A stretch of 64,000 bases of DNA from an uncultured Methanosarcinales archaeon (GTDB lineage Archaea > Nanobdellota > Nanobdellia > Woesearchaeales > ARS49), in assembly GCA_964572035.1 (NCBI GenBank), contig CAZNDX010000001.1, positions 60,437-124,436 on the forward strand, in the 5' to 3' direction. Shown one piece after another: positions 7,501 to 18,690 of this stretch. The translations under genes and the position numbers were made by a program. The notes under the pieces were generated by a model. That model saw only the letters and a list, made by a program, of their open reading frames with translations. It did not search any database and had not been told where the DNA came from. Positions within the stretch are counted from its first letter, which is position 1. Each line of letters opens with the position of its first letter.

Positions 7501-8031
7501 ATGGTACAGGAAGGAATAGATTACAAGATATTACACGATTCGTTATACAAAGCGGCAGACATACTAGAATCCTTTGCTAAATGTGATCTGGATGAAGTGG
7601 CAGATTACGACGATTTACAATCACGAGCTAATTACCTTTTTCTCTCCAAATACGTAAAAGAATCACTGACAATAGTTGGAAACGAACCTGAAAAATGGAA
7701 ATACATCACTGAGCAGTATCTGAAACCTCCAAGCTACAACAATCGAACAAGAAATGAGCTCCCAAAAAAATGCAAAGAGGAAGTTATACAAAGAGATGGA
7801 AACAAATGCAGAGTGTGCGGAAAAGAACAATCACTATCAATACACCACATATTGCCTCATTCATTAAACGGTCTGGACTCCCCTGAAAACTTAATGCAAT
7901 TATGTCAAGAATGCCACAAAAAAGTAAGCAAAAAAGACCCACTTGATATTCTTATAAACGCGGCAATAAAAGGAAAAGCCTCCGGGGGGAATTGCACCCC
8001 CGACCTGCTGATTACAAGTCAGCCGCAATAG
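7501..8031 (+). CDS. HNH endonuclease domain protein
   Basis: The C-terminal region CRVCGK...SIHHILPHSLNGLDSPENLMQLCQECH is a complete HNH motif. The 3' end reads into the tRNA-like element. Confidence 0.7.
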   Translation: MVQEGIDYKILHDSLYKAADILESFAKCDLDEVADYDDLQSRANYLFLSKYVKESLTIVGNEPEKWKYITEQYLKPPSYNNRTRNELPKKCKEEVIQRDGNKCRVCGKEQSLSIHHILPHSLNGLDSPENLMQLCQECHKKVSKKDPLDILINAAIKGKASGGNCTPDLLITSQPQ

Positions 8032-8049
8032 CTACTATGCTACGGAGGC
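7978..8049 (-). pseudogene. degenerate tRNA-like element (anticodon arm reads UGU/Thr-like); possible integration-site remnant
   Basis: The minus strand folds as acceptor GCCUCCG/CGGAGGC (7 bp), anticodon stem GCUGA/UCAGC with loop CUUGUAA, and T-arm GGGGG-UGCAAUU-CCCCC. The D-arm lacks GG and the T-loop has G at position 55, so it is unlikely to be functional. It is followed by T-tract. Confidence 0.4.
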
Positions 8050-8161: not shown

Positions 8162-10945
8162 GTGAGAATGGCAAATAAAGCAATTACATTGACTCCTCTG
8201 ATTTTTATTCTAGTGGTGTTAACGTTCGTTAATGTTCAGGGAGCGGAATTAAGTCAAGAAAAAATTTTCCAGTTTGACCATGCGCCCACCCAACAAGATT
8301 ACGACAATCTCTTAATTCGAGGATGCACGGTAACATATGAACCGAGACACTTAAACCTTCTAATCGCGACATGCACTGAACAAGAAGGCGCGATGACGAT
8401 GCAGCAAACACCGCAGATCGGACAAGTTTGGGAAAATGAAATGTTCTCATCGACATTAAGCGACGGCGCCCAAATAATAGAGGCAATTCAGGCATGGAAT
8501 TCAAGTTATAACGGAAGCGGAATTACAATAGGGATAATGGATACAGGCATTAACACAAGCCACTCCGCGCTGGCAGGACAATTTGACGGCGAAATTGACT
8601 TTTACGATGGAGGAACAGCAGAAGACCTGTGCAACCACGGAACGCCCGTCGCAGGAATACTCGCTTCACTAAACGAAACATATAGGGGAATAGCGCACGG
8701 GGCGAGATTTTATAATTTGAAAACGGGACAAATAGTTACCGGCTCTTGCGGCCACTCCAGTTCGGACATAATAGAAGCAATTGACTACTCAGTTGAAAAT
8801 GGAATAGATATCATTTCAATGTCAATAGGAGGAGCAGTTAGCAACTGCGACCTTTCAATAACTGCGCTTTACGTTAATGAAACAGTATATCAAGATGGAA
8901 TTCCGATAGTAATAGGTGCAGGAAACGGAGGATCAAGCAACAACAGCATATGGTCTCCGGGCTGCGCGCAAAACGCAATAACTGTGGGCTCAGTGAACAA
9001 AGACAGGACTTTGTCAAGTTTTTCAAGCAGAGGACCCGTCAACAATTACAACAAGCCGGATGTTTTGGCTCCCGGAAACAGCATAGCCAGTACGCATCTT
9101 GACGGAACATTCGCGGGAGGATTTAGCGGCACAAGCATGGCAACTCCTTTCGCCGCAGGAGTTGTCGCATTAATTCTTCAGGCAAACCCCGAACTTAACT
9201 GGACACAAATAAAAGAAATTCTCGCCAACAGCTCAACAGATTTGGGATACGCAGAAAATGAACAAGGGGCAGGACTTGTCAACGCCAGCAGGGCAGTTGA
9301 GATCGCTCTAACCGTAAACACGACAAAACCTCCAAAAACAACAGCAACAATCACAAAAACAGACAACACAAACCCGCTCAACATATCAAATTCAACGATA
9401 TTGAAATATCAAATAAATTTCACAATCCAAAACGGAACAGCGTACAACACGATAATTGAGGAAAATTACCCGGCAAATATAATATTCATTTCCTCGACTC
9501 CAATCCCAACGACCGGCGAAAATATCTGGGCAGCAGGCAATCTAACATCGGGACAAACATACCAAATAAACATAACTGTGAATGTAAGCCAAAACCTTCA
9601 AAATGGAACAATCCTCACAAACAAAGTCAACGCGACGTTCACGAATTCCACAAACGGACTGGAAACAAAAGAATACATTAAAAACACGACAATAACAAGG
9701 GACCAAACATTCGAGGATTACCCCGGAATATTGATTCTCGCGCAAAACACAAACGGGCCAACATATTATGACATTTACGACAATCAAACATTCGGCGCGC
9801 CTCAAAATTTTGAAACAAACGGAACACCCGCATGGATATTATCTGAATCAACCGAAACCAGAAACGAAACCGCAATAGCCATACAAAACAGCGACAACGC
9901 GATACACTTCTACATCCACACGCCTCAAACGAACGTAACTGACCCAATTTTATTGACGCAAGACTCGGGAGGCTCTCAAAGAAGATTTGACCTTGAGTAC
10001 GACAAAAACGGAAACGCGCTCATAGTTTTCGCAACAGGGAACAGCACGCCATCATACAAAATATGGGACGGAAACCAATTCATATCAAGCGGAAGCCTCC
10101 CTCAAGACGCATGCACAAGCAACACGGCATGGGTGCAAACCGCGGCATCCCCTGTTGATGAAACAGTGATAGCGATATACTCCGACACAAGCGGAAGATA
10201 TTGCGCCCAAGTTTGGAACGGAAGCCAGTGGGGACAAAGCAAACATTTCGACACCGATGCCGGCACCGCAACAGAAAAATTCAGCCTAGAATTTGAAGAA
10301 ACAAGCGGACACGCGCTCGCAGTATTTGAAAGCCCAACACAAGGAATCGTGAGCTACTGCGAATGGACTGGAATTTGGTGTTCTTCAAACACAGACCTGT
10401 CGGACAGAGGAAGCCAAAACGACTGGGTAAGACTTTCTTCCGAACCAACAAGCGACAGAATAATTCTTGGAACATATCAGAGCGGAAACGCAGATATTGA
10501 TGTAGTTGAATGGAACGGAAGCAGATTTGGAACATGGAAAACAATAGATCCAAGCGTTGAAACAGGAGGCGACAGAATATTTGACGTAAGCTACATAGGA
10601 AACACAGGAAAGGCAATGATAGTTTACACTGACAGCAACCAAAAAGTCCCATCGTTCTCAACATGCGAAAATTCCAACACCTGTTTTGGCGGCACATGGA
10701 GCTCCAACAGCTTAACAACAAGCAGCGGAAATAACTGCGGAGAAAACTCCGATTTGGATTTCGTAAAACTAACTCAAAAACCAAACACAAACCAAATTTT
10801 GCTGACCGGATTAAGCCAAACCCAGCACTATAAGTGCGCCCAAGCCTACAACGGAACAACATGGCAAACATGGACTAGCAATCTCGGAAGCGGAAGCGCA
10901 GATCTTGCGGCGGAAGACATTAGCGCGACATTTGACGCCGACTAA
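8162..10945 (+). CDS. secreted subtilisin-like serine protease (S8) with a long N-glycosylation-sequon-rich C-terminal extension
   Basis: Signal peptide, then the catalytic triad motifs IMDTGI (Asp), CNHGTPVAGI (His), GTSMATPFAAG (Ser). The C-terminal 550 aa are packed with N-x-S/T sequons. Confidence 0.85.
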   Translation: MRMANKAITLTPLIFILVVLTFVNVQGAELSQEKIFQFDHAPTQQDYDNLLIRGCTVTYEPRHLNLLIATCTEQEGAMTMQQTPQIGQVWENEMFSSTLSDGAQIIEAIQAWNSSYNGSGITIGIMDTGINTSHSALAGQFDGEIDFYDGGTAEDLCNHGTPVAGILASLNETYRGIAHGARFYNLKTGQIVTGSCGHSSSDIIEAIDYSVENGIDIISMSIGGAVSNCDLSITALYVNETVYQDGIPIVIGAGNGGSSNNSIWSPGCAQNAITVGSVNKDRTLSSFSSRGPVNNYNKPDVLAPGNSIASTHLDGTFAGGFSGTSMATPFAAGVVALILQANPELNWTQIKEILANSSTDLGYAENEQGAGLVNASRAVEIALTVNTTKPPKTTATITKTDNTNPLNISNSTILKYQINFTIQNGTAYNTIIEENYPANIIFISSTPIPTTGENIWAAGNLTSGQTYQINITVNVSQNLQNGTILTNKVNATFTNSTNGLETKEYIKNTTITRDQTFEDYPGILILAQNTNGPTYYDIYDNQTFGAPQNFETNGTPAWILSESTETRNETAIAIQNSDNAIHFYIHTPQTNVTDPILLTQDSGGSQRRFDLEYDKNGNALIVFATGNSTPSYKIWDGNQFISSGSLPQDACTSNTAWVQTAASPVDETVIAIYSDTSGRYCAQVWNGSQWGQSKHFDTDAGTATEKFSLEFEETSGHALAVFESPTQGIVSYCEWTGIWCSSNTDLSDRGSQNDWVRLSSEPTSDRIILGTYQSGNADIDVVEWNGSRFGTWKTIDPSVETGGDRIFDVSYIGNTGKAMIVYTDSNQKVPSFSTCENSNTCFGGTWSSNSLTTSSGNNCGENSDLDFVKLTQKPNTNQILLTGLSQTQHYKCAQAYNGTTWQTWTSNLGSGSADLAAEDISATFDAD

Positions 10946-11097
10946 TCTTATTACAAAATAAGTATGACGAAGTATTATATACTGGAAGTTCTAGCGAGAA
11001 TAAAATTATAAAAAGAGAACAATTTAAACTACATAAAAAGTAAAAAATAACTACAAAATAAGTAAAATTACTTAAAATGTAGCAAAGAGGTGAATGA

Positions 11098-11475
11098 TTG
11101 AAGCCAGACCAACACTTCGCGCCAATAACCATTTTCAACGGAAAACTAAGCCCTGGCGAGGCGCTCGTAAAACACTTACGGGAACACCACAACCTGCGGT
11201 TCACAGACATCGCTAAACTGCTAAACAGAGACCAAAGAGGAATCTGGTGCGCGTACAAGGCATCGCAAAAAAAAGAGCCAGAACACATTCCTTTTGACCC
11301 GCACCACATATTGTTCCCTGTGAACATGTTTTCTGACCGAAACTTCAGCATACTGGAACACATCGTGATTCATCTGCGGGAAAAATACACCGTAAAAGAA
11401 ATAGCGGAACTTCTAAACAAACACCCAAGCACAATAAGCACTATTCAGACGAGAGCAAGGAGGAAACAGCCTTGA
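11098..11475 (+). CDS. DNA-binding protein with two tandem HTH_10 / sigma-70 region-4-like helix-turn-helix repeats
   Basis: TTG start with AGAGG SD 7 nt upstream. Repeat 1 is LSPGEALVKHLREHHNLRFTDIAKLLNRDQRGIWCAYKAS and repeat 2 is FSILEHIVIHLREKYTVKEIAELLNKHPSTISTIQTRARRK. Its stop overlaps the TTG start of the giant surface protein gene. Confidence 0.55.
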   Translation: MKPDQHFAPITIFNGKLSPGEALVKHLREHHNLRFTDIAKLLNRDQRGIWCAYKASQKKEPEHIPFDPHHILFPVNMFSDRNFSILEHIVIHLREKYTVKEIAELLNKHPSTISTIQTRARRKQP

Positions 11476-14400
11476 GAATTCTGCCAATTTTACTGATATT
11501 GGCACTCGCTACGGCCACAGCAGGAGTTGACATATCAGAAATACTTGGCAAAAAATTGGAAGTAAAAAATGAAGAAAACAAAAATGAGAAACTAATTTCA
11601 GATACATTGTCAAAATTCACAGAACGATTAAAGGATAAAAACGAAATATCCCTAATTGACAAAACCGGAAAAGCGCAAATAAAACAAACATCCAGAAATT
11701 GGACGATCAACGCAACAATTGAAAATCACCCGATCAGAAAAATACAACTCAACAACGTAAGAGGAAAAAACAACACTCTAAAGATAGACACCCCAATAAT
11801 AAAAGACTCAAGACAGTCATACGCGATAGACCCCACGGAAATCAACTTCACCAACGGAGAAATAGAAGTAATCGCGAAAGGGGAGCACCTTTTCAAATGC
11901 CCCGGATGGAACTACACGACGGCAATCTGCGAAGAAACCTGCAAATTGAACAATGACCAAGAAGAAGTATGCCTTGAATGGTTTTACCAAAAAGAAATCA
12001 CTCCCGGACAACCATACACAATAGAGATAGCCCCAAATGACCCCGCGTTTTATGAAACATCCGCATCATCTGACGTGTCCGCAAGCCCCTATAACAGCAC
12101 AACAATACTAATCGCGTTCACCGATGTAACCCAAACCGACGTGGGATTTAAAATAATGGACACAAACGGGACTGAAATAGTAAATACAACACTTGTTGAC
12201 ACAACGGTTGACACAAGATCAAGAGTTGACTCAGCATGGATAAACTCAACACACTTCGTAATATTCTGGGCGGACACGCTTGAAAACGACGGAACATTTC
12301 AAATATGGAACTTCAACGGAACCCACGCGACAAGCGCGACAACTCCAATAGACGCAGACACAAGCATGGGAGGAATAAATGTTGACGTATCAATAGCCAT
12401 GCTAAACGACAGATTCGTAACCTGCTACGCGAACGACGGAGACTCTGACGCCGATTTCAGGGCTTTCGACTTTTTGGGAACACAAGTAGTTGGAGAAACC
12501 GCTGTTGACGGAAACATACTTCCAAGCGCACCCCTCCAAAACCAAATCGACTGCTCAGCGACGAGCAACAACAGATGGACTTATTTCACTTATGACGACG
12601 CTACTGTCAACGACGCGACATATTACATTCAAAGCGAAACAGGCGCAAGCATAGTAGGGGCAGTCGATATAGACACGGACGTCGGAGAGGAAGGACAAGT
12701 GACAGTCATAGGACTTAACGAAAACTTGTCAGGACTTGTTTGGTATGATTCAACAGACCAAGACATAACAATCGCGGGAGTCAACAACTCAGGAACAACA
12801 ATATTCGGACCAACCGACGCAGACACGGAAGCCGGGACTTCAAGCAGAGTCGCGGCGACAGGACTCAGGCAAGACAAAACATCAACCGACCAACTCTTCG
12901 CGTTCGCCTGGTACGACTCAGCAGACACCACAATAAAAGCGGCCGTTTATAGGACAAACGGGACACAATTCACCGCGCCATTCAACGTAACAACAACTCC
13001 AAACAGCACATATCAAATCATAGACATAACCGGAAGAGATAGCATAACAGGACAAGAAATATGCCCCGGCACGTTCATCGTCGCGTTCAGCAACTCAACT
13101 GGAAGAGGGGAATTCCTTGGCTTCTGGGCGAACAGTACACCATGGAACGGAACGTGCGTTGAAAACGAGCCACCCTCAATAAAAAACGCAACAGTTGTTC
13201 CTTCAATAGTGAACATAGGAAACAACGTGTGTTTCATTTTGAACGTTACAGACGCGGACGGTATAACGAACGTCACGGCAATCATAGACCCCCCACTTGG
13301 AGCCAACCAAACTCTGACTTTGAACGAAGGGTTATCATGCAACAGCATCCCAGGGGATAATTTATGGACAAACATTTACTTCCCAATAATTGACGCGACA
13401 CACATTTGGGGAACTGTAAACATAACAGACGGATTAGGGGTAACAACAACTCACGCGATTAATGTTAGTTTCGATGTATTACTCCCTTCGATATCAATTG
13501 AGGGAATTTACCCTCCAACTTTCGCAGCGTATAACGACGGAACAAACTTCAACGTCAGCCTGATTAATGTCTCGGATAACGTTTATACGACACAAACAAT
13601 ACCCGCAAATGTAAACACTCGAACATTCTTCAACTGGACACAGTTCAACTTAACCGACAAACAAATAAAAAACGCAGTTATTATAGTTGAGCATTCATAC
13701 TCGAACTCAACCAATCTCAACATAAGCCTTGACCAATTCAACGGAAGCGAATGGATCAGCAGATGCACACTCAGCGCAAGCCAAACTGACACAACCCACT
13801 TTTGCAACATAACCGTATTTGTAAATTCAACAACATTAAACAATCTTCAACTGAGATTGAACGCGAGCGCGACTTCAAATAGAACACAAAATGTGGACTA
13901 TATTGTTCTCAACCTAACCACAAACACGCCGCCAACAATCAACCACGACATAAACCAAACATACCTTTTGAACCAAACGGCGCTTCTAAGACTCAACGTC
14001 ACAGACCTCGAAAATGACACAATAATCAGAGTGAACGCCACAGTCACATCTCCAAGTGGAGCAACACTATTTTACAACTTCACAAACACAAACGGAACAT
14101 TATGGGACGCGACGCATGCCGACATGAAACTAAAAGGAATCTACAACATAACCATAAGGGCAACAGACAACCAAGGCAGCACAAGAGTAATTCAAACATT
14201 CTTCACAAGAAGAGCGTTTAACGTTGTCGACATAATAGAGCCAAAAGAAGAAGGAGTCCCAACGCTTCAGAATTTCAGCTTCCACAATTACACCGCCCAG
14301 ATAATCTCAAACCAATCAAACATACTTGCCCTATCCATAAACCTCACGGGAGCAGAAGTTAAACAAATTAACATAACTGGATACAACGAAAGCTCCCCAT

Positions 14401-16655
14401 ACAGCATAATTGAACTTAAAGACGATGAAGAAAACACGCCAAAAACAGTATCATTCACAGGATATCAAATAAACCCTGAAGGCCTTGACTTCACGAACGC
14501 GACACTTCTCCTGAACGCGAGCGGAAACCACTCATTATGGAAATGCGCGAACTACAACTTCACGGAAGAAAAATGCTTTGAAGGAAACTGGATAGAACAC
14601 CGAAACATAACAAAAGGCCAACTTTACACCGTAAATATAAACGCAACGGACCCCGCTTTTATCGAAACAACGGCGGCAGGAGACGTCGCAATGGACCCAC
14701 TAAACAACACAATATTCCTAATAGGATTTGTTGACATAGCTCAAACAGAGGTCTCATTTGAAATACTAAACACGAACGGAACAATAATCATTAATACAAC
14801 AGACGTGGACACAACAGTAACAACAAACGCAAGAGTTGACGTCAACTGGATAAACAGCAGCCACTTCGTAATATTCTGGGCAGACACAAACGATAACGAC
14901 GCGACATTCCAAATATTTAGCTTCAACGGAACAGCAACAACAAGCGTCGCAGGACCAATAGATGTCGACACATCAATGGGAAGCGCAAATGTTGACGTAT
15001 CACTCGCAATGCTAGACAACAGATTCGTAACGTGCTACGCGAACGACGCAGACTCTGACGCGGACTTTCAAGCATACAATTTCGCCGGAACACAAGTGGT
15101 TGTTGAAACCGCAGTGGATGGAAATATACAACCAAGCTCGCCGCTTCAAAATCTAATAGACTGCTCGGCAACAAACAACACCAGATGGACATATTTCACA
15201 TTTGATGACTCGACAGTCAACGACGCGACATACTACATTCTCGACAACACAGGAGGAACAATAGTGGGCGCGACAGACATAGACACAGACGTAGGAGAAA
15301 CAGGACAAGTAGCAGTAATTGGACTTAACAACAACCTTTCAGGGCTGGTATGGTATGACAGCACGGACCAAGACATATCAATCGCAGGAGTCAACAATTC
15401 AGGAACAACCACCTTCGGACCAACAGACGTCGACACAGGAGCCGGAACAGAAAGCAGAGTAGCAGGAGCAGCAGTCCGACAAAACAAAACATCAACCGAC
15501 CAACTATTCGCGTTCGCCTGGTGGTCACAAAGTAACGGAACGGTAAAGGCGTCAATTTACAGAACAAACGGAACGCAGTTCACGGCGCCGTTCAACGTAA
15601 GCGCATCGATAAACTCAACATTCCCAATAATAGACATAACCGGAAGGGACAACATAACAGGACAAGAAATATGCCCCGGCGCATTTTTAGTCGCTTTCAG
15701 TAACGGATCAACCGGCCAATTTGTCGGATACTGGGTGAACGGAACACCATGGAATGGAACATGCCCTATTGATTTAATAGCAACTCAACTAAACGCGAGC
15801 GACTTAAACCCTGATGAACTGGAAAACGTAACATTCAACGGAAGCATTTTCAACAACGGAACAAGCACCGCGTTTAATTTTATCTCAGCTATCGTGGATG
15901 GAAACTGCACTACTGGAACAATGATACAAAACAGAACAGTCAATCTCTCGGCGGGACAAAACACAACCCTAAACTTCAGCTGGAGCGCGACACCAGTGGG
16001 ACCGCACAACATAAGCTTTTGCGTCAACTACATAAACAATGTTCTGGAGGACAATTACACCAACAACAACATAACAATAACAATAAACGTCAAAGCGTAC
16101 AACGATTACTTCGGCAATATAACAGGAAATCTGACTCTTGACACAAACACAAACAACACTGAATACGACTGGAGATTCAATGACTCAGGAAACATCATCT
16201 TCACAAACTCACAAGTAACTGTGAACTTCACCGCGCTATACGCACTAGGAAGAAACACAACAGGCGGAATAGCGGTTAACGATTTTCTTGAAGCCGACCA
16301 AGCGCTGAACATGACAGGATTCAACGACAGCATACAAACACTATGGTCGACAAACGCAAGCCAGCCAAGACAAACAACAAACTTCACGGTGCGCGGAAGA
16401 ACAATAGAAAATGTGCCGTACATCAACAGCACAAACACAAGCAACTTCATAACAGGCATTTTGTGGCAATCTGTAAACAGCACAAGCAGAGAATTCAACG
16501 CGACGCAAAAGCAACCATTGCTGTTTGTAACAATGATAAACCGCAACCAAACAGGATTCTACGGAAGATATGATTATGAGGCGCACGTACCTGTGCTTCT
16601 GCGCTCCTATAATAGTACGTCCAACGCTTTGCAATATTTTGTTGAACTGAAATAA
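11472..16655 (+). CDS. giant secreted surface glycoprotein candidate (1727 aa) with a large internal duplication
   Basis: TTG start preceded by AGGAGG. Sec signal MRILPILLILALATATAG. There are more than 150 N-x-S/T sequons and acidic DxDxD motifs. Two modules of about 400 aa are roughly 75% identical. Confidence 0.8.
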   Translation: MRILPILLILALATATAGVDISEILGKKLEVKNEENKNEKLISDTLSKFTERLKDKNEISLIDKTGKAQIKQTSRNWTINATIENHPIRKIQLNNVRGKNNTLKIDTPIIKDSRQSYAIDPTEINFTNGEIEVIAKGEHLFKCPGWNYTTAICEETCKLNNDQEEVCLEWFYQKEITPGQPYTIEIAPNDPAFYETSASSDVSASPYNSTTILIAFTDVTQTDVGFKIMDTNGTEIVNTTLVDTTVDTRSRVDSAWINSTHFVIFWADTLENDGTFQIWNFNGTHATSATTPIDADTSMGGINVDVSIAMLNDRFVTCYANDGDSDADFRAFDFLGTQVVGETAVDGNILPSAPLQNQIDCSATSNNRWTYFTYDDATVNDATYYIQSETGASIVGAVDIDTDVGEEGQVTVIGLNENLSGLVWYDSTDQDITIAGVNNSGTTIFGPTDADTEAGTSSRVAATGLRQDKTSTDQLFAFAWYDSADTTIKAAVYRTNGTQFTAPFNVTTTPNSTYQIIDITGRDSITGQEICPGTFIVAFSNSTGRGEFLGFWANSTPWNGTCVENEPPSIKNATVVPSIVNIGNNVCFILNVTDADGITNVTAIIDPPLGANQTLTLNEGLSCNSIPGDNLWTNIYFPIIDATHIWGTVNITDGLGVTTTHAINVSFDVLLPSISIEGIYPPTFAAYNDGTNFNVSLINVSDNVYTTQTIPANVNTRTFFNWTQFNLTDKQIKNAVIIVEHSYSNSTNLNISLDQFNGSEWISRCTLSASQTDTTHFCNITVFVNSTTLNNLQLRLNASATSNRTQNVDYIVLNLTTNTPPTINHDINQTYLLNQTALLRLNVTDLENDTIIRVNATVTSPSGATLFYNFTNTNGTLWDATHADMKLKGIYNITIRATDNQGSTRVIQTFFTRRAFNVVDIIEPKEEGVPTLQNFSFHNYTAQIISNQSNILALSINLTGAEVKQINITGYNESSPYSIIELKDDEENTPKTVSFTGYQINPEGLDFTNATLLLNASGNHSLWKCANYNFTEEKCFEGNWIEHRNITKGQLYTVNINATDPAFIETTAAGDVAMDPLNNTIFLIGFVDIAQTEVSFEILNTNGTIIINTTDVDTTVTTNARVDVNWINSSHFVIFWADTNDNDATFQIFSFNGTATTSVAGPIDVDTSMGSANVDVSLAMLDNRFVTCYANDADSDADFQAYNFAGTQVVVETAVDGNIQPSSPLQNLIDCSATNNTRWTYFTFDDSTVNDATYYILDNTGGTIVGATDIDTDVGETGQVAVIGLNNNLSGLVWYDSTDQDISIAGVNNSGTTTFGPTDVDTGAGTESRVAGAAVRQNKTSTDQLFAFAWWSQSNGTVKASIYRTNGTQFTAPFNVSASINSTFPIIDITGRDNITGQEICPGAFLVAFSNGSTGQFVGYWVNGTPWNGTCPIDLIATQLNASDLNPDELENVTFNGSIFNNGTSTAFNFISAIVDGNCTTGTMIQNRTVNLSAGQNTTLNFSWSATPVGPHNISFCVNYINNVLEDNYTNNNITITINVKAYNDYFGNITGNLTLDTNTNNTEYDWRFNDSGNIIFTNSQVTVNFTALYALGRNTTGGIAVNDFLEADQALNMTGFNDSIQTLWSTNASQPRQTTNFTVRGRTIENVPYINSTNTSNFITGILWQSVNSTSREFNATQKQPLLFVTMINRNQTGFYGRYDYEAHVPVLLRSYNSTSNALQYFVELK
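11893..13157 (+). repeat. intragenic direct repeat, copy 1 (about 1.26 kb)
   Basis: Protein FKCPGWNYT...TPWNGTC. It shares identical nucleotide runs of at least 20 nt (e.g. cacttcgtaatattctgggc) with copy 2. Confidence 0.7.
14538..15764 (+). repeat. intragenic direct repeat, copy 2 (about 1.23 kb)
   Basis: Protein WKCANYNFT...TPWNGTC. About 75% aa identity to copy 1, offset about 2.6 kb. Confidence 0.7.
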
Positions 16656-16769: not shown

Positions 16770-16783
16770 CCTTGCATGCAAGG
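16770..16783. promoter_or_regulatory. 14-bp perfect palindrome CCTTGCATGCAAGG centred on the regulator start codon
   Basis: Read from the sequence. The ATG of ORF 16776 is the palindrome centre. Confidence 0.5.
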
Positions 16784-17246
16784 GGATCGCGTTCGAGAGA
16801 TAGTACTGAGTATAATCTCTAATTCTCAAACCCCGCTCGAAACCCCAGAAATCCTCGAACGCGTTCTTCAACAAACCAAGACGACAAGAACAATCGTCTT
16901 CAAACGCCTCACAGATTTGCGAGGCGACGGCGAGATATTCGGAGCGCACATCGGTTCCGGAAAAGGAACGTGGATTTGGTGGAACAAAGAACTGCACAAA
17001 GACGAGCAGAAAGCACCAACTTCCGACGACAAAATCGCCTCAAAAGTTCTCGAGACAATCTTCACTTCTCAAACTCCTCTAGAAACTAAGCAAATTGAGA
17101 AAATCGTGCAGGACGCGATCCCAACAACCCGCACGATAATTTTCAAACGCTTGACAGACTTGCGCGGCGACGGCAAAGTCAGAGGAAAACACGTCGGTTC
17201 CGGAAAGGGCGCCTGGATATGGTGGAGGGAAAATGCGACTAGATAA
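16776..17246 (+). CDS. tandem winged-helix DNA-binding protein (two ~70-aa repeats)
   Basis: Repeats SQTPLET.EI...TTRTI(V/I)FKRLTDLRGDG...G.H(I/V)GSGKG(T/A)WIWW occur twice. It lies just upstream of the paralogous secreted-protein genes and overlaps the first by 14 nt. Confidence 0.6.
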   Translation: MQGDRVREIVLSIISNSQTPLETPEILERVLQQTKTTRTIVFKRLTDLRGDGEIFGAHIGSGKGTWIWWNKELHKDEQKAPTSDDKIASKVLETIFTSQTPLETKQIEKIVQDAIPTTRTIIFKRLTDLRGDGKVRGKHVGSGKGAWIWWRENATR

Positions 17247-17916
17247 AAGTCTAGGCAAAGCGCTGATCGCAATCGCAATGGCCCTCATTATGGTAGCTGC
17301 AGCCTTCGCCCAGCCAGTAGGAGCGGGCGTGCAAACCGGAACACCAGTAACCAAGTCATTCATCAGCTCCGGAACAATAGGAGCGCAGGGAGGAAACGCG
17401 ACAACACTCAGCGCAACAACAGAAACGCAAACATTGTCCTGGCAGGGCTTCTACGGAGAAGTATCGGCCAATATGAGCCTGGAGAATTCAAACGGCAGCG
17501 TACTATACAGCTGGACCAACGCGACAAACGGAACAATATATCTCAGCAGAAAGGCAGCTGTCAACTTCGCCAACATAACAGCAGTAAACGTATGTACCGT
17601 CGATGAAAGCATCACAGGAACTGGCAGCGCAAGAGTAAACAACACATTCAGGTCAAGCAACAACACCGAGCTAATAGTTGGAGGAACAGTGATTCCACCT
17701 GGAACAGCGTGCGCGATGAACTCATACGTCAATAACGCAAGCCAGAGTAGCGCGTTCGAAGAAATCATCCTGACAGATGACGGAGTAACAACCATATACG
17801 CGACGCAGATAGAGGAGAACGCTCCAGGATTCGACGGACAGCCACACGACTGGCAGGCGCTAGTGCCATCCAACCTAACAACACTAACGTACTACGTATA
17901 CGTCGAATTCGAATAA
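17233..17916 (+). CDS. Sec-secreted protein, paralog family member A
   Basis: Signal peptide ending AFA-QP. Conserved AQGGNxT...WQGFYG core shared with 18010 and 20358. Sequon-rich. Confidence 0.65.
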   Translation: MRLDKSLGKALIAIAMALIMVAAAFAQPVGAGVQTGTPVTKSFISSGTIGAQGGNATTLSATTETQTLSWQGFYGEVSANMSLENSNGSVLYSWTNATNGTIYLSRKAAVNFANITAVNVCTVDESITGTGSARVNNTFRSSNNTELIVGGTVIPPGTACAMNSYVNNASQSSAFEEIILTDDGVTTIYATQIEENAPGFDGQPHDWQALVPSNLTTLTYYVYVEFE

Positions 17917-18009: not shown

Positions 18010-18690
18010 ATGAGAATAAAGACGCTAATTATCGGCATATTGATTTTAGCAGCAATGACAGTAATGGCTTACGCGCAACCACTCGGAGCGAGCACGCAAG
18101 TAGGAACCCCCCAAACAATCACGTCCGGGACTCCTGGCAACGCCACCGCGCAAGGTGGGAACATAACACTAGTCAACCTGACAGGGAGAGGAAGAGTAAA
18201 CGCCTGGCAAGGTTTCTACGGACAAGTAAGCGGAAACTTCTCACTTGAGGATACTACAGGGGACGTCCTTTACGCTTGGGATATCACAAACCACACAGGC
18301 GAAGTGTTCGCAAGCAGATTCTCAACAATCGATTTCACAACAGTCGCAGGAGTAACAACTTGCACAGTAGATGAAGATTTAACAGGGAACGGAAGAGAAC
18401 GAACAAACAGAACGTTCACAAACGCAACTGTAAACTTCACAATAGGAACCGTGAGCATAACTGAGGCGTGCAGAACATACACATACGTAAGCAACGCGAC
18501 TTCCACAAACTGGGAAGAAATAATCATCAACGCAACAGGCGTAACCAGCATTTACGTCGTCAAAATTAACGAATCCACACCAGTGTTTGACGGAACATCC
18601 CAGGACTACCAAATGATTGTGCCTGATAACAGAACGGCCGCGACAACAGTTTACTACTTTTACGCGGAATTTGACTCGACGAGCGAGTAA
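18010..18690 (+). CDS. Sec-secreted protein, paralog family member B
   Basis: Signal peptide ending AYA-QP. AQGGNITLVNLTG...AWQGFYGQVSG aligns with members A and C. Confidence 0.65.
   Translation: MRIKTLIIGILILAAMTVMAYAQPLGASTQVGTPQTITSGTPGNATAQGGNITLVNLTGRGRVNAWQGFYGQVSGNFSLEDTTGDVLYAWDITNHTGEVFASRFSTIDFTTVAGVTTCTVDEDLTGNGRERTNRTFTNATVNFTIGTVSITEACRTYTYVSNATSTNWEEIIINATGVTSIYVVKINESTPVFDGTSQDYQMIVPDNRTAATTVYYFYAEFDSTSE

What the first reader, a model, noticed from the sequence alone, without database searches (positions are those of the whole stretch)
11098..11475. Tandem sigma-70-region-4/HTH_10-like regulator translationally coupled to the giant surface protein gene
A 125-aa protein is built from two HTH repeats resembling bacterial sigma region 4 or the archaeal HTH_10 domain. 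It uses a TTG start with an SD, and its TGA overlaps the TTG start (preceded by AGGAGG) of the 5.2-kb surface protein gene. An AT-rich upstream region (10946-11097) contains a 12-nt direct repeat, acaaaataagta, at 10952 and 11054. This suggests a dedicated activator co-transcribed with its target.
Basis: partly seen in the sequence, partly recalled or inferred. Interest (0 to 1): 0.55.

Follow-up and report, generated by a model that had tools for sequence, protein, structure and literature searches.

The report
Surface-protein regulator with conserved operator repeats
A small two-headed DNA-binding protein of a tiny symbiotic (DPANN) archaeon sits just ahead of a giant cell-surface protein gene, is preceded by four copies of a DNA motif that recurs at the same place in distant relatives, and in some relatives is fused to the inner tail of the giant protein, so it probably controls how these giant surface proteins are made.

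Summary
ORF 11098-11475 encodes a 125-aa protein made of two sigma-region-4/LuxR-like HTH repeats (AF2 pLDDT 91.6). Its TGA overlaps the TTG start of a 1727-aa secreted protein gene.

The motif TACA-N5-AGTA occurs four times in the 64-kb window, all within 10952-11081. One copy ends 10 nt upstream of a TATA-like box.

The same motif recurs upstream of homologous genes in Woesearchaeota, Nanoarchaeota and Pacearchaeota genomes: 57 same-strand hits against 0.41 expected.

In about 26 of 32 related loci the HTH gene overlaps the start of a very large ORF by 4-11 nt. In other relatives the module is the cytoplasmic C-terminal tail of the giant protein, after a membrane helix.

The family has about 2,170 cluster representatives. 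It has no dedicated Pfam model, and I found no description of it in the literature searches.

Best reading: a dedicated, probably autoregulatory, DNA-binding factor of a giant-surface-protein operon. DNA binding and activator versus repressor are both untested. The HTH_10 resemblance was not reproduced. This is a new variant of a known kind of regulator, of moderately high interest.

The parts
10952..10964 (+). Distal TACA-N5-AGTA site (TACAAAATAAGTA); it ends 10 nt upstream of the TATA-like box
   Evidence: 20.2 bits with a matrix built from other clades. Site-to-TATA gaps of 9-14 nt recur in 12 loci.
10975..10981 (+). TATA-box-like TTATATA, the putative archaeal core promoter element
   Evidence: Sequence. 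Invariant in close relatives. TTTATA(T)A boxes sit at the same offset from a site in other clades. The TSS was not mapped.
11030..11042 (+). Proximal site 1 (TACATAAAAAGTA)
   Evidence: 18.6 bits. Invariant in L033-L037.
11052..11064 (+). Proximal site 2 (TACAAAATAAGTA), 22 bp after site 1
   Evidence: 16.6 bits.
11069..11081 (-). Proximal site 3 in inverted orientation (TACATTTTAAGTA on the minus strand). With site 2 it forms a 32-bp imperfect palindrome, 11051-11082.
   Evidence: I1; 20.1 bits. The half-sites are invariant while the spacers vary in relatives. As RNA it is a weak hairpin, -9.7 kcal/mol, z -2.2.
11087..11093 (+). Shine-Dalgarno-like GAGGTGA, 4 nt before the TTG start
   Evidence: Conserved in L033-L037. 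SD-like motifs precede only 5 of 56 long ORFs in the window.
11098..11475 (+). Gene for the 125-aa tandem HTH protein (TTG start, TGA stop)
11152..11274 (+). HTH repeat 1 (aa 19-59), carrying the family-invariant LLNRDQRGIW at the turn and recognition helix
   Evidence: Invariant columns in A1. Helices 19-30, 35-42 and 46-59 in the model.
11350..11466 (+). HTH repeat 2 (aa 85-123), similar to ECF-sigma region 4.2 (PSTISTIQTRARRK)
   Evidence: HTH_38 32.2 bits (cut-off 27), HTH_23 26.8 (24.6), Sigma70_r4 22.1 (24.1). TIGR02937 E 4e-6, below its cut-off.
11458..11463 (+). AGGAGG Shine-Dalgarno for the giant gene, embedded in the conserved Arg-Arg-Lys codons of the HTH gene
   Evidence: GGAGG is kept at this position in 18 of the 27 junctions listed, while other Arg codons nearby vary.
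11472..16655 (+). Giant secreted protein gene (1727 aa). It has a signal-peptide-like N-terminus, a CARDB domain and an internal 380-aa duplication. It lacks the membrane anchor and HTH tail found in some relatives.
8162..10945 (+). S8 subtilase-domain protein gene, a conserved neighbour of the HTH/giant pair
   Evidence: Peptidase_S8 E 1.6e-49. Homologues lie next to the HTH gene, divergently oriented, in L003-L006, L009 and L018.

Best explanation
The 125-aa protein is a sequence-specific DNA-binding regulator dedicated to the giant surface-protein operon.

Its two sigma-region-4/LuxR-like HTH repeats are packed in one chain, like a built-in dimer. I infer that they read the two halves (TACA and AGTA, about one helical turn apart) of the 13-bp site TACA-N5-AGTA.

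Four such sites flank the likely promoter: one just upstream of a TATA-like box, and three between that box and the start codon. The protein would therefore control transcription of its own bicistronic operon (autoregulation).

Because its stop codon overlaps the start codon of the giant gene, and the giant gene's ribosome-binding site lies inside its last codons, the two proteins are made from one mRNA in coupled fashion. The amount of regulator would then track synthesis of the giant protein.

In relatives the same module is tethered to the membrane as the cytoplasmic tail of the giant protein. The window carries the free-standing version of that module.

Shown here: the fold, the gene coupling, the fusions, and the conserved motif array. 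Inferred: that this protein binds that motif, and the transcriptional outcome. My guess is activation from the upstream site, limited by repression from the downstream sites.
For: Fold:
- The AF2 model has pLDDT 91.6 and pTM 0.84, with two equivalent units.
- EnfR is an archaeal factor with a sigma-r4-like HTH that binds a pseudo-palindrome in its target promoter (PMC10570040).
- Pfam HTH_38 and HTH_23 score above their cut-offs.

Conservation:
- The recognition region LLNRDQRGIW is invariant in 25 sequences that are only about 50% identical overall.

Coupling to the giant gene:
- An overlap of -4, -8 or -11 nt with the start of a very large ORF (up to 5577 aa) occurs in about 26 of 32 related loci.
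- GGAGG is kept inside the Arg-Arg-Lys codons.
- The junction is conserved while the start codon switches between TTG and GTG.

Cis element:
- The window has 4 sites, all within 10952-11081.
- Across 28 loci there are 63 hits in 8.9 kb of upstream windows (7.1 per kb) against 19 in 443 kb elsewhere (0.043 per kb).
- On the gene strand there are 57 hits against 0.41 expected from dinucleotide shuffles of the same windows, with a maximum of 3 in 200 shuffles.
- A TATA-like box starts 9-14 nt after a site in 13 cases, in 12 loci.
- Site spacings cluster at 20-22, 32-33, 41-46 and 72-73 bp.
- In close relatives the half-sites are invariant while the spacers vary.

Link between module and motif:
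- L022 has no free HTH gene, only a giant protein with the HTH module at its C-terminus. It still has sites at 2604 and 2750, just upstream of the giant gene's start at 2763.
- The loci with the most divergent recognition helices (L027-L029) lack the canonical motif and carry other repeats instead.
Against: - There is no experimental evidence of any kind: no DNA-binding data, no TSS, no transcript data.
- The link between this protein and this motif rests on co-occurrence. Another factor could bind the sites.
- About a third of the loci (L002, L007, L008, L026-L030) lack the strict motif and show only looser variants.
- Most sites share one orientation, which would also fit an RNA-level element.
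- The three proximal sites lie downstream of the presumed TATA box, so simple activation is not the obvious outcome.
- The spacing periodicity is not specific to 10.5 bp, and the loci are phylogenetically related, so that statistic is weak.
The claim that the two recognition helices are about one helical turn apart was not measured.
Confidence: 0.68

Rival explanations
1. The module is mainly a protein-protein or assembly adaptor for the giant surface protein, for example a cytoplasmic docking or chaperone domain, rather than a DNA-binding regulator. On this reading the free gene is a split-off copy of the giant protein's tail, and the HTH fold has been co-opted.
For: The module occurs as the cytoplasmic C-terminal tail of giant membrane proteins, often in two copies. 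Many free homologues carry an N-terminal helix resembling the linker of the fused forms. Tight translational coupling is typical of partners that assemble together.
Against: The fold and the basic recognition helices are those of DNA-binding HTHs. The conserved motif array at the operon promoter would be left without a reader. The window's giant protein has no cytoplasmic segment to dock to: it has a signal peptide only and no C-terminal anchor.
Confidence: 0.1
2. The TACA-N5-AGTA array is read by a different factor, or is a lineage-specific core-promoter or high-expression element of surface-protein operons. The HTH protein would then regulate something else or bind elsewhere.
For: The association is correlative only. 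Sites sit at a fixed distance from TATA-like boxes, and in L023 and L025 whole site-plus-TATA units are tandemly repeated.
Against: In the 64-kb window and the roughly 440 kb of flanks examined, the motif is almost confined to the region upstream of this gene family. It persists where the HTH is present only as a fused tail. It changes where the recognition helix changes.
Confidence: 0.12
3. The repeats act at the RNA level, in the 5' leader of the operon mRNA, as hairpins or protein-binding sites that control translation or stability.
For: There is a strong orientation bias: 57 hits on the gene strand against 5 on the other. The three proximal sites lie between the TATA-like box and the start codon. 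Positions 11051-11082 can form a hairpin of -9.7 kcal/mol, z -2.2.
Against: The distal site lies upstream of the TATA-like box, and in 12 loci a site precedes such a box. The inverted copy that creates the hairpin exists only in the window's own clade. There is no Rfam match. The HTH type is a DNA binder.
Confidence: 0.05
4. The protein is a remnant of a bacterial sigma factor or of an IS30-type transposase DNA-binding domain, with no dedicated role at this locus.
For: Sigma70_r4, r4_2 and ECF-sigma hits are sub-threshold, and the HTH_38 (IS30-type) hit is above its cut-off. JGI names some homologues 'sigma24' or 'IS30 family transposase'.
Against: There is no sigma region 2 and no transposase catalytic domain. 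Archaea do not use sigma factors. Synteny with giant genes is conserved across DPANN lineages and the family is large and well conserved. The window holds a single copy.
Confidence: 0.02

Closest known systems
Archaeal Tfx-family regulator EnfR (TON_1525, PDB 8HNO)
   Different: EnfR has one HTH plus an acidic alpha+beta domain and acts as a homodimer. This protein has two HTHs in one chain, no second domain, no sequence-level match, and a different 13-bp site.
LuxR/GerE-type (NarL/FixJ, RcsB) DNA-binding domains and bacterial sigma-factor region 4
   Different: There is no receiver domain and no sigma regions 2 or 3. The Pfam Sigma70_r4 score is below its cut-off, and no GerE hit was listed. 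The two HTHs are tandem in one chain, and no solved structure matches the two-repeat arrangement (Foldseek TM at most 0.39).
Membrane-tethered one-component transcription regulators (bacterial ToxR/CadC type)
   Same: In relatives the HTH module is joined to a membrane helix and a large extracellular part. In L022 such a fusion carries the motif sites at its own promoter. This is the logic of a membrane-bound DNA-binding sensor.
   Different: ToxR and CadC carry an N-terminal OmpR-type winged helix and a small periplasmic sensor. Here the HTH is sigma-r4-like and C-terminal, and the outside part is a giant adhesin-like protein of up to 5919 aa. The window's own protein is soluble and unfused.
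Archaeal activators that bind just upstream of BRE/TATA (e.g. Ptr2 of Methanocaldococcus; from my own knowledge)
   Same: A site at a fixed short distance upstream of a TATA-like box (9-14 nt) is the layout used to recruit TBP or TFB.
   Different: Ptr2 is an Lrp-family protein. No activation data exist here, and additional sites lie downstream of the box.

Membership tests
Pfam HTH_38 (PF13936) / HTH_23 (PF13384) generic HTH domains | Score at or above Pfam's gathering cut-off | tested here: met
   HTH_38 scores 32.2 bits against 27, and HTH_23 scores 26.8 against 24.6, both on repeat 2 (aa 88-119). Repeat 1 is recognised only through its similarity to repeat 2.
Sigma-70 family (region 4) | Sigma70_r4 or r4_2 score above the cut-off | tested here: not met
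   The scores are 22.1 against 24.1 and 21.8 against 25.7. TIGR02937 scores 26.5 against 42.9.
Sigma-70 family (region 4) | Presence of region 2, which binds core RNA polymerase and the -10 element | tested here: not met
   The protein has 125 aa consisting of two region-4-like repeats only. The host lineage is archaeal.
Sigma-70 family (region 4) | Region-4-type fold | tested here: met
HTH_10 (PF04967, bacterio-opsin activator type) | Detectable match to the Pfam model | tested here: not met
   No HTH_10 hit was listed at E<=1. HMMER's filters drop most matches above about 0.1, so a very weak match cannot be excluded. HVO_A0114 (PF25212) is sub-threshold at 22.2 against 27.6.
LuxR/GerE-type regulators | Match to the GerE Pfam model, and a regulatory (receiver or ligand) domain | tested here: not met
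Tfx / EnfR family | N-terminal sigma-r4-like HTH plus an acidic C-terminal alpha+beta domain, acting as a homodimer | tested here: not met
   Only the HTH superimposes (46 residues). The profile search of PDB sequences found nothing significant.
Membrane-tethered transcription regulators | A transmembrane segment in the same polypeptide as the DNA-binding domain | tested here: not met
   The window protein has no hydrophobic segment. Relatives do: all 12 giant proteins fetched, plus L017, L021, L022, L023 and L025, have a hydrophobic helix and a K/R cluster directly before the module.
Autoregulated operon with operator repeats | Repeated, conserved sites at its own promoter | tested here: met
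Autoregulated operon with operator repeats | The protein binds those sites and changes transcription | not testable with these tools
   This needs EMSA or footprinting, and reporter or transcript data.

The most novel reading that the evidence does not exclude
The tandem HTH module is the output end of a surface-to-chromosome signalling or positioning device that is widespread in DPANN archaea. In the fused forms, a giant adhesin-like protein carries a promoter-specific DNA-binding tail on the cytoplasmic side. Completion, membrane insertion, host contact or cleavage of the giant protein would then feed back directly on transcription of its own gene, or would hold the gene at the membrane for co-translational export. 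The free protein in this window is the soluble partner or derivative of that device. This would be the first membrane-tethered, self-targeting transcription factor system described in archaea, and a handle on how episymbiotic archaea regulate their attachment proteins.
Probability: 0.3. Interest if true: 0.85.

Novelty: new variant of a known kind. Interest (0 to 1): 0.68.

Why it matters
Giant surface proteins are a hallmark of DPANN archaea and are thought to mediate attachment to host cells. To my knowledge, nothing has been reported about how they are regulated.

This locus supplies three things:
- a candidate regulator family, with about 2,170 cluster representatives at 50% identity and no dedicated Pfam model;
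- a defined 13-bp candidate operator that can be tested with simple in-vitro assays using proteins from uncultured organisms;
- natural fusions that place a promoter-specific DNA-binding domain on the cytoplasmic tail of the surface protein itself.

Together these turn "how do these cells control their giant adhesins" into an experiment. They also allow regulon prediction in DPANN genomes by motif scanning.

Tried and rejected
- PDB sequence search with the family profile: nothing significant.
- Foldseek against PDB for the whole two-repeat model: no match to the arrangement, TM at most 0.39.
- The afdb50 library was unavailable.
- Rfam scan of 10700-11700: no hit.
- RNA hairpin at 11051-11082: weak (z -2.2) and specific to this clade, so it was set aside as the main explanation.
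- Search for further copies of the HTH family in the window: none.
- HTH_10 resemblance: not reproduced.
- Helical-phase test of site spacings: the Rayleigh statistic is similar for periods from 9.5 to 10.7, and the loci are related, so only the clustering of spacings is reported.
- Literature searches for DPANN giant proteins with HTH, regulators or membrane-bound factors: nothing on this family.
- Transposase or sigma remnant reading: rejected on synteny, and on the absence of catalytic domains or region 2.
- The bacterial promoter/terminator scanner was not used, because the host is archaeal.

Full report
**1. The observation**

The ORF at 11098-11475 (+) is real as described.
- An in-frame TGA sits at 11095-11097. 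TTG at 11098 is the only canonical start before the first family-invariant residue, P9.
- GAGGTGA (11087-11093) lies 4 nt upstream of the TTG.
- The stop TGA (11473-11475) overlaps the TTG (11472-11474) of a 1727-aa ORF. That ORF begins with a signal-peptide-like MRILPILLILALATATAG and contains a CARDB domain.
- AGGAGG (11458-11463) lies 8 nt before that start, inside the codons for the conserved C-terminal Arg-Arg-Lys.
- In close relatives the junction AGGAGGAAACArCC[T/G]TGA is conserved. The start codon switches between TTG and GTG while the 4-nt overlap is kept.
- SD-like motifs precede only 5 of 56 long ORFs in this window. Two of those five are these genes (ORF starts were taken mechanically).
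- The intergenic region 10946-11097 is 22% GC against 43% overall.
- The 12-nt repeat exists, but at 10953 and 11053. With the preceding T it is a 13-mer at 10952 and 11052, 100 bp apart.

**2. The protein**

- The two halves are homologous: 30% identity, E 2e-7.
- Pfam places repeat 2 in HTH_38 (32.2 bits, cut-off 27) and HTH_23 (26.8, cut-off 24.6). Sigma70_r4 and r4_2 fall just below their cut-offs, and HTH_10 is not listed at E<=1.
- NCBIfam gives only sub-threshold ECF-sigma hits.
- With the 25-sequence alignment, AlphaFold2 gives a confident model: pLDDT 91.6, pTM 0.84. It shows two equivalent units, each a short strand followed by helices.
- EnfR is an archaeal factor whose HTH resembles sigma-70 region 4. 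It binds a pseudo-palindrome in its target promoter (PMC10570040).
- No solved structure matches the two-repeat arrangement as a whole (Foldseek TM at most 0.39). A profile search of PDB sequences found nothing significant.
"HTH_10-like" was not reproduced.

**3. The family and its context**

- Homologues (24 at 90% clustering) share an invariant LLNRDQRGIW in repeat 1.
- A genome scan places the family in DPANN archaea: Woesearchaeota, Nanoarchaeia/Nanoarchaeota and Pacearchaeota MAGs. It includes the complete genome archaeon GW2011_AR20, CP010426.1.
- Archaeal markers (Rpb7, Spt4, S24e, S27e) lie near one homologue.
- An exhaustive profile search finds 2,167 representatives at 50% identity with E<=1e-3, of which 444 have E<=1e-30.
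- In about 26 of 32 related loci the HTH gene's stop overlaps, by 4, 8 or 11 nt, the start of a very large ORF (up to 5577 aa). These ORFs begin with a signal peptide or with a cytoplasmic coiled coil plus a membrane helix.
- GGAGG is kept inside the Arg-Arg-Lys codons in 18 of the 27 junctions listed, while neighbouring Arg codons vary.
- An S8 subtilase gene is a recurrent neighbour. Paralogues of the window's 227-aa and 226-aa proteins follow the giant gene in L002, and follow the HTH gene directly in L029 and L030.

**4. Fusions**

- In L017 (twice), L021, L022, L023 and L025 the same module forms the extreme C-terminus of the giant protein. It follows a hydrophobic helix and an Arg/Lys cluster.
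- Of the best 150 representatives, 24 are at least 500 aa long (up to 5919 aa) with the module or modules at the C-terminal end.
- All 12 such proteins that I fetched show the pattern of helix, then K/R cluster, then module. Many also have an N-terminal coiled coil plus a membrane helix.
- The positive-inside rule places the module in the cytoplasm. That rule is established knowledge; its application here is an inference.
- L021, L023 and L025 have both a free HTH gene and a fused tail.
- The window's giant protein ends exactly where relatives continue into the membrane helix. The window therefore carries the unfused arrangement.

**5. The cis element**

The window has four copies: 10952 (+), 11030 (+), 11052 (+) and 11069 (-). 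There are none elsewhere in the 64 kb (the pattern was derived from these sites).
- An independent test used a weight matrix built only from sites in other clades. The top four hits of the whole window, on both strands, are these four (16.6-20.2 bits). The next best hit scores 13.2.
- Across 28 non-redundant loci the strict pattern occurs 63 times in 8.9 kb of 330-nt upstream windows, against 19 times in the remaining 443 kb.
- On the gene strand there are 57 hits, against 0.41 expected from dinucleotide-preserving shuffles of the same AT-rich windows. The maximum in 200 shuffles was 3. Only 5 hits are on the other strand, and 18 of 28 loci have at least two hits.
- The extended consensus is tAyTACAwAnnrAGTA.
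- In 13 sites from 12 loci, a TATA-like box starts 9-14 nt after a site (mode 13). In the window the site ends at 10964 and TTATATA lies at 10975-10981.
- Spacings between sites cluster at 20-22, 32-33, 41-46 and 72-73 bp. The periodicity statistic is not specific and the loci are related, so I give it little weight.
- Among close relatives (89-92% protein identity) the half-sites are invariant and substitutions fall in the spacers. The sequence upstream of the distal site is unrelated in L035-L037.
- L022 has only the fused form of the HTH, yet it has two sites directly upstream of the giant gene.
- Loci with the most divergent recognition helices (L027-L029) lack the canonical motif and carry other local repeats. 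L026 and L030 have TATTA/TTACT..AAGTA variants.

**6. Mechanism**

Shown:
- a conserved tandem HTH of DNA-binding type;
- a conserved start/stop overlap with giant surface-protein genes;
- fusion of the module to the cytoplasmic tails of such proteins;
- a conserved, oriented, multi-copy 13-bp motif around a TATA-like box at these operons.

Inferred:
- The protein binds this motif, one HTH per half-site (TACA and AGTA, about one helical turn apart).
- It regulates its own bicistronic operon.
- Translational coupling keeps its level proportional to synthesis of the giant protein.

The position of the distal site fits activation, by recruiting TBP or TFB as with Ptr2-type activators (my own knowledge). 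The three proximal sites, downstream of the presumed TATA box, fit repression at higher occupancy. The sign of regulation is open.

Rival readings are scored in the report sections: an assembly adaptor, a motif read by another factor, an RNA-level element, and a sigma or transposase remnant.

**7. Comparison and novelty**

- The protein works like a small autoregulatory HTH factor. It is not a member of the sigma-70, LuxR/GerE, HTH_10 or Tfx families by their defining features (see the membership table).
- The fused relatives resemble bacterial membrane-tethered regulators such as ToxR and CadC in logic only. They differ in domain type and in topology.
- Literature searches found no description of this family, its motif, or its link to DPANN giant proteins. 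The held library is incomplete, so absence there is not proof.
- I rate it a new variant of a known kind. It matters because it gives a testable regulator-operator pair for the giant surface proteins of uncultured symbiotic archaea.

Noticed in passing
window 11472-16655: The giant protein contains an internal duplication of about 380 aa (roughly aa 167-545 and 1035-1415; 71% identity). Its C-terminus (..HVPVLLRSYNSTSNALQYFVELK) resembles the conserved segment that precedes the membrane anchor in relatives, but it stops before any anchor or HTH tail.
   Followed up: partly
window 16776-17246: Directly after the giant gene lies a 156-aa protein made of two winged-helix-like repeats. It has 68 homologues, several on the same contigs as the HTH family (for example P0190 on the 323-kb contig of L001). 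JGI names single-repeat relatives 'repressor of nif and glnA expression'. It may be a second regulator of the cluster.
   Followed up: partly
window 17233-17916 and 18010-18690: These are two paralogous proteins of about 226 aa; the first begins with a hydrophobic signal/anchor-like segment (N-terminus of the second not examined), and neither has a Pfam match. Relatives follow the giant gene in L002. In L029 and L030 they are the gene directly coupled to the HTH gene, in place of a giant ORF.
   Followed up: partly
window 8162-10945: An S8 subtilase-domain protein (927 aa) lies upstream. Homologues lie next to the HTH gene, divergently oriented, in six other loci, and S8 domains occur inside some giant proteins (L021, L025, L026). 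Residues 393-513 match segments of relatives' giant proteins at 43-48% identity.
   Followed up: partly
L023 9480-9820 and L025 4200-4510: In the AR20-like clade, whole units of site plus TATA-like box (TACATATTAAGTA, about 12 nt, TTTATATAT) are tandemly repeated 3-7 times with a period of roughly 44-58 bp upstream of the HTH gene. This forms an array of promoter-like units.
   Followed up: no
52 proteins P0025, P0027, P0029, P0031: Many family members of about 300-370 aa carry two complete tandem-HTH modules (four HTHs) in one soluble protein. Some giant proteins carry two modules in their tail.
   Followed up: no
window 1-64000: SD-like motifs precede only 5 of 56 long ORFs (background 3% per 15-mer). 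This suggests that most genes here start without an SD, while the HTH gene and the giant gene both have strong ones. The window also shows a persistent excess of A over T on the plus strand (AT skew 0.08-0.48).
   Followed up: partly
window 7501-8049: The 3' end of an HNH-endonuclease ORF (7501-8031, +) overlaps a tRNA-Thr gene on the opposite strand (7977-8049).
   Followed up: no
L002 3866-5017: A site-2-protease-type Peptidase_M50 gene lies two genes upstream of the HTH/giant pair in L002. It is of possible interest if the tethered HTH tails are released by intramembrane cleavage. It was seen in one locus only.
   Followed up: no
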